The position numbers were made by a program, and so were the translations under genes. Shown one piece after another: positions 8,880 to 55,413 of a DNA stretch of 64,000 bases (the stretch's first letter is position 1; every line of letters begins with the position of its first letter). The notes under the pieces were generated by a model. That model saw only the letters and a list, made by a program, of their open reading frames with translations, made no database searches and was not told where the DNA came from. Source of the DNA: a virus. The DNA is taken from IMG/VR virus record IMGVR_UViG_3300022908_000001, positions 9,488 to 73,487 of that record; one strand, given 5' to 3'.

Positions 8880-9803
8880 TTAAAACGAACGAGAAGTTTC
8901 GACATAATATGTCTCCACAGAGGATATTTCATTATACTCTGTGTCGTCGCATTGCAAATCAATAATAAGCCATCCGCCCTGCATTTTACGCCCATTGAAT
9001 AGGGCGTCTAATCGCCTTTGAGTTGGGTCACTAATTCCGGCGAAGTTCGGGTCGGTAACACAGCCCAAAATATCCGCCCAAAGTTTATTGTCAATTAACT
9101 TAAAGTTATTTTTCTTTAACTGAGTCAGCATACCATTAGGAAATTGATTGCTATCCGGCGTGGTTATCGATGGCATATACCATTTTCCTACCGCATCTAA
9201 TCTAAAGTTATAAAATATTTTCTCACGTTGATATTCAGCATTGACAATTATAGTTAGCTTTGATGAATATTGGTCACCATATAGGTTATTTTGAATAGGA
9301 TTGGTGTTGTGAACCCATAATTCACCATTCTTCCAGCTTATGAATGAGTCAATGAATTTAGCCATGACGTCGTTTGTGTACTCGTAATCGGCACACCATT
9401 TATTAGCCTTATCAAAGAAAGATACAACCTGAGCTGATTTTGGGCCGAGAAGTAAATCATAAAACTTCAAACCGTCAACCTGCAAATTTCCATCTGAAAA
9501 GAAAAATATCGAACTGTTATTAAGCTGAGTTAGTGTTTCGGTGTACGTACCATTAGCTGTGCGATTTGTGCCAGCTTGTGTACCAGCATATATCTGAACA
9601 CCGCCAGATGTCCTATTGGACACTGGGTATGTAAAAACGTATTGCCTACCGACTACCAATCCAAAATCAGTAAGGGATTGCGTAAAACCGGCATTACAAG
9701 CCGAGTGGATTAAGCTTCCATCGGAAATAACCCACCCTGTGTCTGTTGCGGCGACCGGGGCGTTTACATAGCCAGTTTGATTTTGTATGATTTGCAGGCT
9801 CAT
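8880..9803 (-). CDS. Tail protein resembling the C-terminal part of crAss-type stabilisation (muzzle) proteins
   Basis: VVSFFDKANKWCADYEY...FISWKNGELWVHNTNPIQNNLYG pattern; lies directly downstream of the 1349-aa gene. Confidence 0.6.
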   Translation of the reverse strand: MSLQIIQNQTGYVNAPVAATDTGWVISDGSLIHSACNAGFTQSLTDFGLVVGRQYVFTYPVSNRTSGGVQIYAGTQAGTNRTANGTYTETLTQLNNSSIFFFSDGNLQVDGLKFYDLLLGPKSAQVVSFFDKANKWCADYEYTNDVMAKFIDSFISWKNGELWVHNTNPIQNNLYGDQYSSKLTIIVNAEYQREKIFYNFRLDAVGKWYMPSITTPDSNQFPNGMLTQLKKNNFKLIDNKLWADILGCVTDPNFAGISDPTQRRLDALFNGRKMQGGWLIIDLQCDDTEYNEISSVETYYVETSRSF

Positions 9804-36334: not shown

Positions 36335-36676
36335 ATGAATAGAATAACATCTTGTATCTACATGATACTGTTTGACAACAATATGTGTTATATTGGCAAA
36401 TCAGATGCACCATATTTAAGATTTTATAAGCATATCTCATTACTAAAATCTAACAGGCATGGTAATAGAATAATGCAACAAGCTTATAATGAAGGTCACT
36501 TTAAATCTATTGATTTTGCTGTTGTTAGAGAGGTTGATAGAGATGTTGTAAGCGACTGGGAGAAGTTTTATATATTCCTTTATAACAAAACAGCCTATAA
36601 TATTATGTGCAATAGGAATTATAAAAAGACTGGAAAATCTGAAAGATACATGAACAATAAAGTAGAATTAGTATAA
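36335..36676 (+). CDS. GIY-YIG endonuclease
   Basis: CIYMI...CYIGKS...RFYKH...HGN..MQQAYN...EKFYI...YN. Confidence 0.85.
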   Translation: MNRITSCIYMILFDNNMCYIGKSDAPYLRFYKHISLLKSNRHGNRIMQQAYNEGHFKSIDFAVVREVDRDVVSDWEKFYIFLYNKTAYNIMCNRNYKKTGKSERYMNNKVELV

Positions 36677-40890: not shown

Positions 40891-40919
40891 CCCCTACTAA
40901 ATAAAGAGAGGAAGATACG

Positions 40920-41033
40920 CAGAGGGTGGTGGAATTGGTAGACACACCCTGCAAGGTGAGGGAGGGTTCGATCCCCTCTGAAAAAACTGGGTGCACTCTT
41001 TGAAGGTTCGAGCCCTGCCCCTCTACCCCGCCA
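40920..41033 (+). ncRNA. tRNA-like RNA with an expanded anticodon arm
   Basis: Acceptor CAGAGGG/CCCTCTA, D-arm GTG-GAATTGGTAGA-CAC, T-arm GAAGG-TTCGAGC-CCTGC, and 39 nt enclosed by ACCC/GGGT. Confidence 0.7.
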
Positions 41034-41339
41034 GTCCCCTAACAAGACTGGCTTTTTTAAAAACTAATAATATGAAAGTACGAATAACCCAATCAAGTAA
41101 ACCATCATACTGGTACGCTGATAAAGTAGGACAAGAGTTCTACGTAACAGACCATGACCATAGAAGCTACAAGGTTACACCCGGTGGTCACTACATCCGC
41201 ATGGTTGACTGTGATATACTAAGCCATACCGAATTCGGCGATTCATATTGTGTTATACCTGCCAGCATCACCTACTTACTCAACAGGTTATTTAATGTGC
41301 TTGGTGGGTGACTGGCTTTTTTGTTTCAGGGAAGTTTTG

Positions 41340-48558: not shown

Positions 48559-50925
48559 TTAGTAACGGGTCGCGCCTCGTTCATACTTGGTGAGCGAAGT
48601 CAGCCATTTAACGCCGGGATTCCTGAAATCAATCAGGTGCTTTTTGTCCTCGTCAAATTTGGGAGGGTTCCGGGTTATCTTTTCACGCCCGATTGTTTGG
48701 GCGATTATGGCGGGGTCGGTGCGGTAATTAATTGTTTTCATATTTCTATTTTATTTGGTTTCATATCCTAATATCTCTTTTTAGTTATAGAAAAGTCAAT
48801 GCCATTAAACCTGAGACCAAGTGCCCAGCTACTTGTAAATTTAGCATCGATTCTGTTTTTCCATTCATCTTCGAGCATTTCGAAATCTTCATAGCCCAAT
48901 TCTAAATGAATCAATGCATTTTCAACCCTTAGCCCATTGCAATCAATTTCAGACAATATGCATGATAACTGTTCAATTCTTTCTATCTGTGTCATTTCTC
49001 ATATCCTAAAAGTCCATGTACTTCAACAATTAAAAGTTCCTGATTCAACGCCTCAATGACCCGCTCACAAGCCGCATAATCGCCACGATCCAATACAGCC
49101 TGAACCAATTCCTGTTCGGTTTCGGCAATCGTCAGCAGCAGGAAGTTGCGCTCGTCCTGTAGGGTTATGGGTGGTTTTGGACGGTTCATGATTGATGATA
49201 GTAATAAATTAAAAAGTATCCTTCGCCAACGTTCATGAATAGAACGGATACGACTTCTATGTTTCTTTGCGAATTGACCCATATGTTGACAGCGTTATAA
49301 TTTTGACTCGTTACAGCATGGTTCATAAAAAGACGATCTGACTTTTTCATACCTTTTTCCAATTATTTTGCGCGTACTGAGCAAACCGACCAAAATTCTC
49401 ATTAACAACCAATAGTTTCTCTTTCCACGGCGCATCGTTATCGCCGCCGTATTGGTTAAAGAATGAGTTGATTATTATGGTTTGCATATCGTTATTGCCT
49501 TTGTATATATCGTTTATGTGCAGGTAGTTCTTTAGTTTCCATTCCAGTCCACTTGCGCCGGGTAGTATCAAACGGGGCTTGTTTTTATTTTTGTTTTTAC
49601 GGCTCATGCTTCCTCCTTCACTACCAACCCTAACTCCTTAACCACACTCTCCACAGGCAGAACGCCATATTCGTCATAAACCAGTTGCAGTAACTTCGCA
49701 GCAGGCAATGGTGGCAATTCAAGTCGCTCACGTGCCGTTATGCACCCCACCATATAGGCAAAGGCTTCGGCGTAGTTGTTAGTTGTTTTCATATGTTTAA
49801 TGCTTTGTTGATGGCTTGTCTCGCTATGTCTACATTCCAAGTTAATAATTGACCGTGTTCATCGTAATGATTCATAAGGTTTTGCAGGGACTCTAATAAG
49901 TCAGGTGCTGCGGCAATTAATCGAGCGTTTGAATGCTCTTCAACGCAGCAGCATGTTTCGACACCACAATCATCATCACTAATGTTGCCGACAAAAAGTA
50001 CCCTTTCAACAACACGCTCACCAAATTTCTTAGGTATAACGGCGGTGATTTGCCCTTTATGGGTTGTCCTTTTAATCCATGGGCCGGGAGTCCCCTTAAA
50101 TTGATTTGGAATTGCTGTACTCATATATGAACATTATTTAATATATCACCTAAAAAATTACTGAACTCTTGTAGTAGCTTATTTTCACCACCACCATAAT
50201 AATAGCCATAATCAAAATTATATCGCTGGCCACCATCTATGATATAAAACTCAAAACACTGGCAACCCATATCGGATTTATATGATTTATAATCATGGAC
50301 TGACACGTTAGCCCGTTTTGCCATTTGTAGTATTTTTCTTTTCATAAAATATCGCTTTCTATATCCCATCTCATAAGAGGACGATTTTCATCTTCATACT
50401 CCAATCCGAAGCTGTCAATTTCGCGGTGGTCGTCTTCTTCCCAACCACGGTTTCTGTTTTGGTATGCGTCAATTTCCGCGAGCTCAAATGGCGTAAATTC
50501 CAGCACCGATTTCGCCCTCGTTTGGGTGCGTTCGGTTGGTTTTAGTTCGGTTAGTTGTTTCATGACACAACCTCCAATGTTTTCGATTTGTGGATGTCGT
50601 CGATGTTGATGAAAGCCACAAGTTCGTCGGGTAAATCAATTTCAAAGGAGTATTCAGGCAGTAGTATCCGCTTTTCAGGCTTAGATAACAAACTGTCAAA
50701 TGTCTGTATAAAAAAGGTCGTATCATCCGAAATGTGCATTATACCAAAATTATCCGACAACCCATTTGGCCTTATGGCGTGATATCCGACATGGGCATCG
50801 GGAAATATATCTCTTATAGCTAAGGCTATAGCGCAATTCTCCCCCGTAGCACCAATGGCGCGAATAGTTCCGCACCACATACTCCTGCGCAGAACATCTT
50901 TAGTAACTGTAATCTTAATTTTCAT
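48559..50925 (-). CDS. Run of small hypothetical genes heading the leftward replication unit
   Basis: About nine coupled 60-120-aa ORFs, including a TPGPW...NARLIAAAPDLLE family protein (49789-50124). Confidence 0.55.
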
Positions 50926-50948
50926 ATCCTTTCCTTATTTGGTATAAG

Positions 50949-50980
50949 CAAACCTACAAAGTATAATTGGGATGTGCAAA
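50949..50980 (-). promoter_or_regulatory. Bacteroidota housekeeping-sigma promoter, leftward
   Basis: On minus: TTTG-N20-TAGGTTTG, a perfect TAnnTTTG; divergent from the rightward early unit. Confidence 0.75.
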
Positions 50981-51054
50981 TTTATTTTTATTTTTATTTT
51001 CAGATTTATTTGCAAATATAAAAAATAGTTCCGATACTTGTAATGTAATAAAAT

Positions 51055-51216
51055 ATGAGGGTAGACAAAAAATGGAATAAAGTCGCCAGTTAATATAAGG
51101 TTAACGAAAACATGTAAGTAGTTAATTGATAAATAACCGGAGAGGCAATAATCGAATTAAAGCAAAGTACACGCATTGATTTGTAGCCAATGCAGGTTCG
51201 AATCCTGCCCCTTATG
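51055..51216 (+). ncRNA. tRNA-like RNA with expanded anticodon and variable arms, 162 nt
   Basis: Acceptor ATGAGGG/CCCTTAT, D-arm GAC-AAAAAATGGAATAAA-GTC, stem CCAGTTA/TAACCGG enclosing 41 nt, perfect T-arm GCAGG-TTCGAAT-CCTGC. Confidence 0.65.
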
Positions 51217-51240
51217 CGAACTGGCAATCTTGCCGGTTTA

Positions 51241-51292
51241 ATTGTGATAAGGTTTAGGAAAGGACGGCGATACGCAAGGTTGATCCGTCCTT
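51241..51292 (+). ncRNA. Second copy of the ATTGTGATAAGGTTT/GATACGC hairpin motif
   Basis: 15-nt identity to 22421; stem AAGGACGG/CCGTCCTT with GATACGC in the loop; no U-tract. Confidence 0.5.
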
Positions 51293-51316: not shown

Positions 51317-51550
51317 ATGATAAAATTAAACGAAGCGGCAAAAGAAAAGATTAAGAGCGACAGGCAGTTGTTTATAGAGGTTCAAAAGACCTTGAATGTA
51401 ACTGAAAATAGCCTTTATAGATTCATTAAAAATGATAGCAATAGGCTGACGGAAATAGATTGCCTTAATACTATTGTTGAATTTACCGGCATGCCTTTAT
51501 CTGCATTTGTTGATGGTAAAATAAGCAAACTAATTTGCAAACAATCATGA
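51317..51550 (+). CDS. HTH-like regulator
   Basis: EVQKTLNVTENSLYRFIKN; first gene of the rightward early unit. Confidence 0.55.
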   Translation: MIKLNEAAKEKIKSDRQLFIEVQKTLNVTENSLYRFIKNDSNRLTEIDCLNTIVEFTGMPLSAFVDGKISKLICKQS

Positions 51551-54333: not shown

Positions 54334-55413
54334 ATGCGCACGTACAAAAGAAAATTGATCCTAACGGAAGCCCAAGAAAAAAGACTCAGGGCATGGATTG
54401 ATACGTGCAGGTGCGTTTATAATTTAGCTTTAGAAGTCAGGATAGAGTCGTATAAGAAATGCCAAAGGTCGGTACATAGGTACGATCTTATAAACCAGTT
54501 GCCGGAATTGAGAAAGGAGTACCCGTGGATAAATGATGTTAATTCTGATTGCCTTAGCAGGGTTATAAACAGGCTTTACATTTCATACAATAGATATTTC
54601 AAGAATGGGGCAAGCTTCCCAAAGTTTGCATCAAAAAGGAAATTTAAATCAATTCTATTCAGGCATGCATTATCCATAAAAAATAATATCATTAAATTAC
54701 CCACAATTGGTAATTTAAAAATGGTTAAGGATGCTCCGATTTTAGGAACACCCAAAACGATAATAGTAAAAATTGAACCAACTGGGCTGTTTGCATGTAT
54801 CCAATGCGATAGTGCCCTCTCCAAATTCACCAGTGAGAACCAATCTGTTGGACTGGACATGGGGATAAGCAAATTCTGTACAGATAGCAATGGTAAGTTT
54901 ATTGAAAACCCTAAACATTTTAAAAAGTATGAACGCAGACTGAGAATTGAAAACAGATCACTCGCCCGTAAAAAGAAAGGCAGCAACTCATGGAAAAAGC
55001 AATGCAAGAAATTGGCGTTGCTTCATTATAAGATTGGGAATGTTCGCAGGGATTTCCTGCATAAAGAAAGCACTTGTATAGCCAAATCCAATAGGGTGGT
55101 TTACCTTGAGAGTTTGAACGTTAAAGGCATGTCTAAAAATAAAAACCTATCAAAGCATATATTAGATTGCGGGTGGGGAGCATTCAGAGCAATATTAAGC
55201 TATAAGACGAATGTGGTAGCAGTCAGTCCAGCCTATACATCTCAAGGCTGCTTTGAATGCGGTGTGGTAGATAAGAAAAGCAGAATCAGCCAAAGTGAAT
55301 TCGTTTGCACGTCTTGCGGGCATGTGTCCCATGCTGACGTAAACGCAGCGAAAAATATTAAACGACAAGGCATGTTGCTAGATCGTCAACGTGAAGCGTT
55401 AGCTTGTGCGTAG
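54334..55413 (+). CDS. tnpB: TnpB RNA-guided endonuclease (IS200/IS605 family), solo
   Basis: N-terminal YKRKL...CRCVYNLAL, RuvC VGLDMG / VYLESL / HADVNAAKNI, Zn ribbon TSQGCFECG...CTSCG. Confidence 0.95.
   Translation: MRTYKRKLILTEAQEKRLRAWIDTCRCVYNLALEVRIESYKKCQRSVHRYDLINQLPELRKEYPWINDVNSDCLSRVINRLYISYNRYFKNGASFPKFASKRKFKSILFRHALSIKNNIIKLPTIGNLKMVKDAPILGTPKTIIVKIEPTGLFACIQCDSALSKFTSENQSVGLDMGISKFCTDSNGKFIENPKHFKKYERRLRIENRSLARKKKGSNSWKKQCKKLALLHYKIGNVRRDFLHKESTCIAKSNRVVYLESLNVKGMSKNKNLSKHILDCGWGAFRAILSYKTNVVAVSPAYTSQGCFECGVVDKKSRISQSEFVCTSCGHVSHADVNAAKNIKRQGMLLDRQREALACA

What the first reader, a model, noticed from the sequence alone, without database searches (positions are those of the whole stretch)
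51055..51216. Second expanded tRNA-like RNA at the very start of the early transcript
Seen: 7-bp acceptor ATGAGGG/CCCTTAT, TA linker, D-arm with TGG, G26, stem CCAGTTA/TAACCGG enclosing 41 nt (with an inner TTAAC/GTTAA hairpin), a ~50-nt variable arm (GGC...AATC/GATT...GCC) and a canonical T-arm. It shares GAGGGT at the 5' end and GGTTCGAnnCCTGCCCCT at the 3' end with the 40920 element, and the anticodon inserts are nearly the same length (41 versus 39 nt). It is too short for tmRNA or a group I intron. Two independent copies keeping the elbow and acceptor while replacing the anticodon suggest a family. Inference: tRNA scaffolds used as decoys or as stable carriers for small RNA cargo, made immediately on infection.
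Basis: partly seen in the sequence, partly recalled or inferred. Interest (0 to 1): 0.8.

Follow-up and report, generated by a model that had tools for sequence, protein, structure and literature searches.

The report
Solitary tRNA-like RNA gene in phage
A soil phage carries, just upstream of one of its gene blocks, a 162-base sequence that keeps only the two outer arms of a transfer RNA, and its closest relative has a differently spelled counterpart at the same spot, so it is probably a small tRNA-mimicking RNA whose job is unknown.

Summary
Window 51055-51216 (+) has a 7-bp acceptor stem (with G3.U70), a canonical T-arm (GCAGG-UUCGAAU-CCUGC) and a discriminator G. They enclose an AT-rich 130-nt body that folds into two long hairpins. 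No tRNA, tmRNA or Rfam model recognises it. It lies in the divergent intergenic region of a complete 73.5-kb crAss-related phage genome that has no integrase and no ordinary tRNA.

The key new evidence is a 113-nt element in the closest relative (L208/L239). It sits at the same junction, on the same strand and behind the same alignable promoter block. It also has a perfect 7-bp acceptor and a T-arm, but its acceptor spelling and its body are different.

Eight other relatives have a junction without the element. The motifs shared with the 40920 element are a common tRNA 3' block, and the 5' halves and interiors show no significant similarity.

Best reading: an accessory, tRNA-derived, non-decoding RNA whose acceptor/T-arm minihelix is kept for host tRNA processing. 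Phage T4 RNA C, itself of unknown function, looks similar. A decaying tRNA pseudogene is the main rival. The decoy, cargo and "early" claims are untested.

The parts
50939..50967 (+). Promoter-like site TTGGTA-17-TATAAT. It would start transcription near 50975, about 80 nt before the element.
   Evidence: 10 of 12 consensus matches. This is a consensus match only.
51044..51049 (+). Alternative -10-like hexamer TGTAAT. It would place the start at about 51055, the first acceptor base.
   Evidence: Read by eye. It lies in the block that aligns with the TATAAT of L208 in alignment A2. Inference only.
51055..51061 (+). Acceptor stem, 5' strand ATGAGGG.
   Evidence: It pairs with 51209-51215 over 7 bp, including G3.U70.
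51064..51084 (+). D-arm-like region: GAC/GUC 3-bp stem with a 15-nt loop that contains GG.
   Evidence: Present in the minimum-energy fold only and absent from the centroid. No counterpart in L208.
51086..51140 (+). Long irregular hairpin in place of the anticodon arm. The outer stem has an A.C mismatch, and the inner stem GGTTAAC/GTTAATT closes a 15-nt apical loop.
   Evidence: No 7-nt anticodon loop. No covariation data.
51144..51188 (+). Second hairpin in the position of a long variable arm.
51192..51208 (+). Canonical T-arm GCAGG-UUCGAAU-CCUGC.
   Evidence: (17-nt local match to a tmRNA model's T-arm).
51209..51216 (+). Acceptor stem 3' strand CCCTTAT plus discriminator G. No CCA is encoded.
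51221..51243 (+). Hairpin CTGGCA-ATCT-TGCCGG followed by TTTAATT, which looks like a terminator.
   Evidence: Read and present in the fold. The terminator scan did not flag it.
51260..51292 (+). Second GC-rich hairpin AAGGACGG...CCGTCCTT before the first gene.
51317..51550 (+). First open reading frame (77 aa) of the rightward block of small genes. No family match.
40919..41029 (+). The other tRNA-like element of this genome. It has a good class-II-type D-arm, a 4-bp/6-nt anticodon-like hairpin, an internal extra T-arm-like hairpin, a T-stem with an A.G mismatch and an acceptor with a C.A mismatch.
   Evidence: ARAGORN at 95% thresholds: tRNA-Cys GCA with a 34-nt 'intron'; tRNA-Sec model, 16.6 bits, E 0.78.
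41030..41058 (+). Intrinsic-terminator-like hairpin GCCAGTC...GACTGGC plus T6, right after the 40920 element.

Best explanation
51055-51216 is an accessory, tRNA-derived but non-decoding 'tRNA-like' RNA gene of a crAss-related soil phage.

Only the coaxial acceptor/T-arm minihelix of a tRNA is kept. That is the part read by RNase P, the 3'-trimming and CCA-adding enzymes, and the T-loop modification enzymes. The D and anticodon arms are replaced by lineage-specific hairpins.

It is transcribed from the rightward promoter of the divergent control region, ahead of the first small gene. Inferred steps:
- Host RNase P cuts at A51055, unless transcription starts there.
- The 3' end is trimmed to G51216 and CCA is added.
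- This releases a stable RNA of about 165 nt, as for phage T4 RNA C.

What the released RNA does is not known. The most likely use is occupying or titrating a host factor that reads tRNA acceptor ends or elbows. The structure and the positional counterpart are shown. Transcription, processing and function are inferred.
For: 1. A strict descriptor hits the real genome once, here, against 7 of 400 simulated genomes.

2. A positional counterpart exists. Among 30 metagenome loci anchored on the 186-aa neighbour gene, a T-arm pattern hit 3 times in 180,825 nt on both strands. One hit lies in the closest relative L208 (75% identity), in the divergent junction and on the matching strand. It proved to have a perfect Watson-Crick acceptor CGGGGGA/TCCCCCG and T-arm GCGGG-UUCGAUU-CCCGU. 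It is 113 nt long, with fold z -2.57 and 2 of 200 shuffles as good. The reversed-sequence control gave 0 hits.

3. Alignment A2 shows the promoter-bearing block is alignable in the window, L208 and L209. The element starts where L209's first gene starts, so it is an insertion between the promoter and the first gene.

4. Both elements keep perfect outer arms while their acceptor spelling and interiors are unrelated (381 of 500 shuffles score as well). This pattern fits selection on the minihelix only.

5. It is not coding. No + strand frame of 40 aa or more overlaps it.

6. It is not attP. No tyrosine or serine recombinase is found in the complete genome. No bacterial or archaeal species genome of 185,579 holds its 3' 21-mer.

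7. There is a known analogue. T4 rnaC (139 nt) folds with a canonical T-arm next to a terminal stem and two long hairpins, z -4.57. It is a detected RNA of unknown role (passages read in PMC3014915 and PMC9697503). RNase P is known to process non-tRNA phage RNAs (passage in PMC11143913).
Against: - There is no expression data. The only run holding the phage is DNA.
- Only two phage lineages carry the junction element. L239 is the same phage as L208 (99.985% identity). There is therefore no true covariation series, and the two may be independent insertions rather than orthologues.
- 8 of the 11 relatives' loci with enough upstream sequence have a junction without the element, and 2 show no junction. 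It is dispensable.
- Fold z-scores are modest (-2.1). The centroid in context drops the acceptor stem.
- The interior is as AT-rich as ordinary spacer DNA and shows no conservation.
- The same phage lineage holds several other degenerate tRNA-like sequences: 40920, L011:8404-8487 and L085. This also fits plain tRNA decay.
- G3.U70 is not conserved in L208, so alanine charging is not a shared feature.
Confidence: 0.45

Rival explanations
1. It is a decaying tRNA pseudogene. An ancestral phage tRNA gene at this junction lost its decoding function, and the D and anticodon arms have been overwritten by indels. The outer arms survive only because they are GC-rich and the decay is recent. On this reading the element has no function.
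For: - The genome has no intact tRNA but has a second, clearly damaged tRNA-like sequence at 40919-41029, with mismatches in the acceptor and T-stem.
- Relatives hold other degenerate tRNA-like sequences: L011:8404-8487 next to a real tRNA-Pro and L085.
- The interior is AT-rich and unconserved.
- The element is absent from most relatives.
Against: - Two different elements at the same junction both keep 7 of 7 acceptor pairs, 5 of 5 T-stem pairs and a canonical UUCGA loop, while everything else is unrecognisable.
- Uniform decay should have hit the 24 outer-arm positions too.
- The interiors differ by large replacements (130 versus 82 nt), not by point decay.
Confidence: 0.28
2. It is an mRNA punctuation or leader-processing signal. 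The tRNA-like fold is there to be cut by RNase P and the 3' tRNA nucleases. This separates the promoter-proximal leader from the downstream message and sets the message's 5' end and stability. The released RNA itself is a by-product.
For: - In L208, L234, L085 and the G008 element, the tRNA-like sequence ends roughly 20-30 nt before the start codon of a same-strand gene.
- 6 of the 13 expanded tRNA-like sequences taken from other viral contigs also end 37 nt or less before a same-strand gene.
- RNase P is known to cleave polycistronic mRNAs and phage RNAs (passage in PMC11143913).
Against: - In the window, 100 nt with two hairpins, one of them terminator-like, lie between the element and the first gene. 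This looks more like a separate small RNA unit.
- Tight gene packing in phages makes 'just upstream of a gene' the default position for anything intergenic.
- Relatives without the element run the same junction.
Confidence: 0.15
3. It is an attP-like remnant of a host tRNA 3' end, an integration-site core carried by the phage.
For: The 3' 26 nt look like a generic bacterial tRNA 3' end.
Against: - No integrase or resolvase is found in the complete 73,487-bp genome, while the control genomes ring.
- The 21-mer GGTTCGAATCCTGCCCCTTAT has 0 matches in 185,579 species genomes. The exact 24-mer has 0 matches in viral contigs.
- The 5' acceptor strand is present and paired, here and in L208.
Confidence: 0.03
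4. It is a chance juxtaposition of a T-arm-like hairpin and a complementary 7-mer in AT-rich spacer DNA.
For: The loose descriptor hits 12 of 100 simulated genomes. Fold z-scores are only about -2.
Against: - The strict descriptor hits 7 of 400 simulations.
- Apart from ordinary tRNAs it gave only 1 hit in 1.17 Mb of related loci, and 0 in the reversed control.
- A second element sits at the same junction in L208.
Confidence: 0.04

Closest known systems
Phage T4 RNA C (species 1 RNA, rnaC), and the 'tRNA-like molecules' of T-even phages
   Same: - A phage-encoded RNA of about 140 nt.
- A canonical T-arm (CCGGG-UUCGAAU-CCCGG) lies directly before a 3' strand that pairs with the 5' end.
- Two long hairpins stand where the anticodon and variable arms would be (fold).
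- Its function is unknown (passages read in PMC3014915 and PMC9697503).
- It does not decode.
   Different: - There is no sequence similarity in the interiors (305 of 500 shuffles score as well).
- T4 rnaC sits inside a cluster of eight tRNA genes. The window element is solitary, in a genome without tRNAs.
- T4's terminal stem is imperfect (5 of 7 pairs as I read the fold), while this one pairs at 7 of 7.
- That RNA C maturation needs RNase P is my recollection, not a call.
Canonical bacterial or phage tRNA (Rfam RF00005; ARAGORN)
   Same: A 7-bp acceptor, a 2-nt linker, a T-arm with UUCGA, G53-C61, and a discriminator base.
   Different: - No 5-bp/7-nt anticodon arm and no proper D-arm.
- 162 nt long.
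- Not detected by ARAGORN at default or 95% thresholds.
- No RF00005 match even at E up to 10.
Intron-containing tRNAs in viral contigs
   Same: An expanded length of 96-168 nt with intact outer arms.
   Different: - 6 of the 13 such sequences taken from other viral contigs reach Rfam's tRNA gathering score over the full model with one large insert.
- The window, L208 and L234 elements do not match RF00005 at all. Removing one insert does not restore a cloverleaf.
tmRNA tRNA-like domain
   Same: An acceptor with G3.U70 plus a T-arm. The only Rfam local hits are to tmRNA T-arms.
   Different: - No tag reading frame, no pseudoknots, and too short.
- G3.U70 is absent in L208.
- ARAGORN calls it 'tmRNA' only at 80% thresholds, among 13 calls that look mostly spurious.
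C4 antisense RNA of phages P1/P7 (RNase P-processed RNA at the head of an operon)
   Same: A small RNA placed between a promoter and the first gene, and a candidate RNase P substrate (named in PMC11143913).
   Different: C4 acts by pairing with its own downstream message. Here the interior shows no better pairing to the downstream 120-140 nt than shuffles do: 258 of 500 (window) and 165 of 500 (L208) are as good.

Membership tests
tRNA (RF00005 / ARAGORN) | 7-bp acceptor stem closed by 5' and 3' ends | tested here: met
   ATGAGGG/CCCTTAT, 7 of 7 pairs with one G.U.
tRNA (RF00005 / ARAGORN) | T-arm: 5-bp stem, 7-nt loop UUCRANY, G53-C61 | tested here: met
   GCAGG-UUCGAAU-CCUGC.
tRNA (RF00005 / ARAGORN) | 5-bp anticodon stem with a 7-nt loop (U33, anticodon, purine 37) | tested here: not met
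   A 55-nt irregular hairpin stands in its place.
tRNA (RF00005 / ARAGORN) | D-arm (3-4 bp stem, 7-11 nt loop with G18G19) | tested here: inconclusive
   Only a 3-bp GAC/GUC stem with a 15-nt loop, seen in the minimum-energy fold but not the centroid.
tRNA (RF00005 / ARAGORN) | Detected by the family's own models | tested here: not met
   ARAGORN finds 0 genes at default settings and does not call it at 95% thresholds with introns allowed. Rfam gives 0 at gathering and no tRNA hit at E up to 10.
Intron-containing tRNA | A canonical cloverleaf remains after removing one insert | tested here: not met
   Only at 80% thresholds does ARAGORN force a 'tRNA-Thr with a 91-nt intron at 31/32'. The same setting gives 136 calls in this 73-kb genome.
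tmRNA | G3.U70 in the acceptor | tested here: met
   G51057.U51213. It is not conserved in L208, which has G3-C70.
tmRNA | Tag reading frame, pseudoknots, detection by tmRNA models | tested here: not met
   ARAGORN at default settings finds none. Rfam matches only the 17-nt T-arm, 8.4 bits against a gathering score of 84.
attP / tRNA 3' fragment | An integrase in the genome | tested here: not met
   PF00589 and PF00239: 0 matches in the complete genome, with positive controls.
attP / tRNA 3' fragment | Identity to the 3' end of a host tRNA gene | tested here: not met
   0 of 185,579 species genomes hold the 21-mer. The host may be unsampled.
T4 RNA C-like phage tRNA-like stable RNA | T-arm adjacent to a terminal stem, long hairpins instead of the anticodon arm, 120-165 nt | tested here: met
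   Compare the folds.
T4 RNA C-like phage tRNA-like stable RNA | Sequence homology to rnaC | tested here: not met
   The interior local score is no better than shuffles (305 of 500).
T4 RNA C-like phage tRNA-like stable RNA | Accumulates as a discrete stable RNA in infection | not testable with these tools
   No RNA run holds this phage.
Bacterial Y RNA (YrlA) | Rfam match, or a Ro (TROVE) partner gene | tested here: not met
   No Rfam hit. PF05731 has 0 matches in the phage genome. A host Ro protein cannot be excluded.

The most novel reading that the evidence does not exclude
Phages of this crAss-related soil lineage, and perhaps many others including T4 with RNA C, carry interchangeable 'minihelix-scaffold' RNAs. 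Each is a tRNA acceptor/T-arm handle that hijacks host RNase P, the CCA-adding enzyme and tRNA stability pathways to produce a stable RNA whose variable body is the working part. Alternatively, the CCA-bearing acceptor end itself soaks up host factors or defence toxins that act on tRNA 3' ends. Different cassettes are swapped into the same hot spot between the promoter and the first gene.
Probability: 0.18. Interest if true: 0.7.

Novelty: new variant of a known kind. Interest (0 to 1): 0.45.

Why it matters
Phage genomes are annotated with tRNA finders that miss such sequences entirely. This genome would be recorded as having no tRNA-related genes.

If the acceptor/T-arm handle is a general way for phages to make stable non-coding RNAs, two things follow. 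It would give a testable role to the T4 RNA C class, which the two reviews read here still describe as of unknown function. It would also add a new kind of accessory gene to the early control regions of crAss-related phages.

If it is only a decaying tRNA, it still marks a junction where tRNA-type genes are repeatedly gained and lost.

Tried and rejected
- Known RNA families: Rfam at gathering gave 0 over the window. In E-value mode on 51055, 40920, L208, L234 and G008 only T-arm fragments or noise appeared.
- Cultured relatives: a 3-kb query against 50,697 phage records found no match.
- Expression: no RNA holder was listed. One DNA run, possibly the source sample, holds the stretch.
- The TnpB-anchored search only found another TnpB locus (L002/G001), not a relative. 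The element is not in that record.
- The 121-aa neighbour has no relatives in viral contigs.
- The DnaB-anchored relatives L003-L005 have no tRNA-like sequence in the fetched parts.
- The L245 relative (81% identity on the 86-aa anchor gene) has no junction within 6 kb. Its record holds a possible 120-nt tRNA-like sequence elsewhere, but the fold prefers another pairing to the T-arm.
- C4-like antisense action on the downstream message was not supported.
- Host capture of the L208-type element: the one 21-mer match, in an Acidobacteriaceae MAG, is not a tRNA and is compatible with chance.
- My first impression that 'expanded tRNA-like genes are widespread in phages' had to be cut back. 6 of 13 are intron-type tRNAs by Rfam, and their hosts are unknown.
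- Literature: searches (listings and abstract starts only, apart from the passages cited) turned up no description of such elements in crAss-like phages. The one co-occurrence of 'crAss-like' and 'tRNA-like' refers to low-scoring tRNA pseudogenes (passage). Supplements were not available.

Full report
WHAT THE WINDOW IS

The window is bases 9488-73487 of a 73,487-bp viral record with direct terminal repeats, rated complete. It encodes:
- a portal, a large terminase and a DnaB-type helicase;
- a YqaJ-type exonuclease and a TnpB/IS605 OrfB protein;
- a small GIY-YIG protein;
- a protein with a Crassvirus muzzle C-terminal domain.

It is therefore a crAss-related tailed phage. The only sequencing run that holds it is a leaf-litter metagenome. 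No tyrosine or serine recombinase is present. ARAGORN finds no tRNA or tmRNA in the window or the whole genome.

Genes run leftward up to 50925 and rightward from 51317. The finding therefore lies in a 391-nt divergent intergenic region.

THE OBSERVATION

There are two qualifications:
- The 'anticodon' stem CCAGTTA/TAACCGG has an A.C mismatch.
- The 'D-arm' is only a 3-bp GAC/GUC stem with a 15-nt loop. It appears in the minimum-energy fold but not in the centroid.

The acceptor pairs at 7 of 7 positions: A1-U72, U2-A71, G3.U70, A4-U69 and three G-C pairs. The T-arm is textbook (GCAGG-UUCGAAU-CCUGC), the discriminator is G, and no CCA is encoded.

It still does so within 326 nt of context (z -1.98, 3 of 100), though the centroid there loses the acceptor stem.

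As for chance:
- The T-loop word GGTTCRANNCC occurs 4 times in the window against 0.81 expected. Three of the four lie in the two tRNA-like elements.
- A strict acceptor+T-arm descriptor hits the real genome once, here, against 7 of 400 simulated genomes. A looser one hits 12 of 100.

On its own this is suggestive, not compelling.

WHAT IT IS NOT

- It is not a tRNA, an intron-containing tRNA or a tmRNA by any model:
  - Rfam gives nothing at gathering. In permissive mode it gives only a 17-nt T-arm fragment.
  - ARAGORN with introns allowed at 95% thresholds calls only the 40920 element.
  - At 80% thresholds ARAGORN 'finds' this element both as a tRNA with a 91-nt intron and as a tmRNA. The same setting yields 136 tRNAs and 13 tmRNAs in 73 kb.
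- It is not an attP-type remnant:
  - The genome has no integrase.
  - The 5' strand is present and paired.
  - The 3' 21-mer occurs in none of 185,579 species genomes, and the 24-mer in no viral contig.
- It is not coding.

THE LINK TO THE 40920 ELEMENT IS WEAK

The shared block GGTTCGANNCCTGCCCCT is a common tRNA 3' end. 72 of them are ordinary tRNAs (Met, Asn, Ile, Tyr, Ser and others).

The shared GAGGG at the 5' end is simply the complement of CCCT. The 5' halves share at best 8 nt, and 228 of 1000 shuffles do as well. The interiors are unrelated (343 of 500).

40920 itself looks like a damaged class-II/Sec-like tRNA:
- a good D-arm;
- a 4-bp/6-nt anticodon-like hairpin carrying GCA;
- a very long variable region with an extra T-arm-like hairpin;
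- mismatches in the T-stem and the acceptor;
- a strong terminator after it.

The two are two tRNA-derived sequences, not demonstrably two copies of one family.

THE DECISIVE EVIDENCE COMES FROM RELATIVES

Relatives found through DnaB (80 loci kept of 114) are too rearranged, or their contigs too short, to cover the junction.

I then anchored on the 186-aa gene 2.5 kb away and scanned metagenome contigs. This gave 30 loci. A T-arm pattern hit three times in their 180,825 nt.

One hit lies in the closest relative, L208 (75% identity). It is in the divergent junction, on the strand that corresponds to the window's + strand, 2.4 kb from the anchor. Only after finding it did I see that it has a perfect Watson-Crick acceptor CGGGGGA/TCCCCCG, T-arm GCGGG-UUCGAUU-CCCGU and discriminator A. 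It is 113 nt long, with z -2.57 and 2 of 200 shuffles as good. The reversed-sequence control of the descriptor gave 0 hits.

L239/L240 are the same phage from other records.

Alignment of the three intergenic regions (A2) shows an AT-rich promoter-bearing block common to the window, L208 and L209. The element begins exactly where L209's first gene begins. So the element is an insertion between the promoter and the first gene, present in two lineages with unrelated spelling.

11 loci have at least 2.4 kb of sequence upstream of the anchor gene:
- 1 (L208) has the element.
- 8 (L209, L210, L214, L217, L218, L222, L234, L236) have a junction of only about 27-165 nt without it.
- 2 (L215, L227) show no junction in the fetched part.

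OTHER NON-CANONICAL tRNA-LIKE SEQUENCES IN THE LINEAGE

None of these is called by ARAGORN.
- L234:2158-2244 has a good cloverleaf, but a 20-nt loop on the anticodon stem.
- L085:1491-1598 (-) in record G005 has an acceptor pairing at 6 of 7, a perfect T-arm and no D-arm.
- L011:8404-8487 lies beside a real tRNA-Pro.
- L249:27-146 in record G008 is a possible fourth, but its T-arm is doubtful.

Their interiors share nothing with the window element. So this is a class defined only by the scaffold, or a series of tRNA genes in various stages of change.

INTERPRETATION

Two unrelated sequences at the same junction both keep 24 outer-arm positions in perfect tRNA form. Neither keeps a D-arm or an anticodon arm. 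That pattern is what selection on the acceptor/T-arm minihelix alone would give.

The minihelix is the part of a tRNA that RNase P, the 3'-end and CCA enzymes, and the T-loop modification enzymes recognise. This is established knowledge. The passages read in PMC11143913 list non-tRNA and phage RNAs among RNase P substrates.

I therefore favour a tRNA-derived, non-decoding small RNA that is cut out by the tRNA-processing machinery.

The nearest described thing is T4 RNA C. In my fold it has the same plan: a T-arm next to a terminal stem, with two long hairpins in between, in 139 nt. The two reviews read here still call its function unknown.

The main rival is plain tRNA decay. The damaged neighbours in this lineage, the unconserved AT-rich interior and the element's dispensability all favour that reading.

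A third reading is that the fold serves as an mRNA processing signal. It fits L208, where the element ends 19 nt before a start codon. It fits the window less well, where two hairpins and 100 nt intervene.

A C4-like antisense role on the downstream message is not supported.

G3.U70, the alanine identity pair, is present here but not in L208. I treat it as incidental.

LIMITS

- No expression data exist for this phage.
- The 'early' label is an inference from the small genes of unknown function downstream.
- There are only two independent junction elements.
- The promoter assignment is by consensus and by eye.
- Supplementary files of papers were not available.
- The statement that nothing like this is described for crAss-like phages rests on searches only.

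Noticed in passing
window 54334-55413 (+): A TnpB / IS605 OrfB-type gene (OrfB_IS605, Cas12f1-like TNB and HTH_OrfB_IS605 domains) sits inside the block of small rightward genes. A 55%-identical copy lies in an unrelated viral contig (L002). Its guide-RNA region downstream was not examined.
   Followed up: partly
window 40919-41058 (+): The other tRNA-like element looks like a damaged class-II/Sec-like tRNA. It has an anticodon-like hairpin carrying GCA, an internal second T-arm-like hairpin (GAGGG-TTCGATC-CCCTC), mismatches in the T-stem and acceptor, and a strong terminator. The internal CCCTCTG can also pair perfectly with the 5' strand.
   Followed up: partly
L234:2158-2244 (+): In a relative (58% identity on the 186-aa anchor gene) there is a near-perfect cloverleaf whose anticodon stem closes a 20-nt loop containing CTTTAGT. 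Neither ARAGORN nor the Rfam tRNA model calls it.
   Followed up: partly
L085:1491-1598 (-), record G005: A tRNA-like sequence of about 107 nt (acceptor GCCCAC/GTGGGC, T-arm GTTGG-TTCGATT-CCAAC, no D-arm) lies between two same-strand genes. The same phage also has a tRNA with anticodon TTA, which would read the stop codon TAA (L006:1553-1624).
   Followed up: partly
L011:8404-8487 (+), record G006: A degenerate tRNA-like sequence (perfect T-arm, 6-bp acceptor, no U33) lies about 5 nt upstream of a normal tRNA-Pro. This recalls the T4 arrangement of tRNA-like RNAs beside tRNAs.
   Followed up: no
L208:6595-6928 (-): The homologue of the window's 121-aa leftward gene (50560-50925) lies on the other side of the junction in L208, in the rightward block. 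It matches in two overlapping pieces, which suggests a frameshift or a fused arrangement.
   Followed up: no
L003:2275-2952: A 678-nt non-coding stretch after the DnaB gene of the closest DnaB relative holds three copies of an AAGTGGGA(A/T)(A/T)AAC-like word. It may be an iteron-type origin. The window has the 40920 element and small genes at the corresponding side.
   Followed up: no
L093, L112, L125, L180, L181, L191 (viral contigs): The Rfam tRNA model matches sequences of 97-136 nt over its full length with one large insert, including three in a row in L093. These are tRNA genes with introns in viral contigs of unknown host. Seven further expanded sequences (L119, L142, L143, L166, L178, L184, L192) are not matched.
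   Followed up: partly
L184:3471-3546 (-): A twister-sister ribozyme match above Rfam's gathering score (38.5 bits) in a viral contig.
   Followed up: no
window 8880-9803 (-) and 36335-36676 (+): A Crassvirus muzzle C-terminal domain places the phage near crAss-like viruses. A small GIY-YIG protein heads the rightward gene block that ends with the 40920 element.
   Followed up: no
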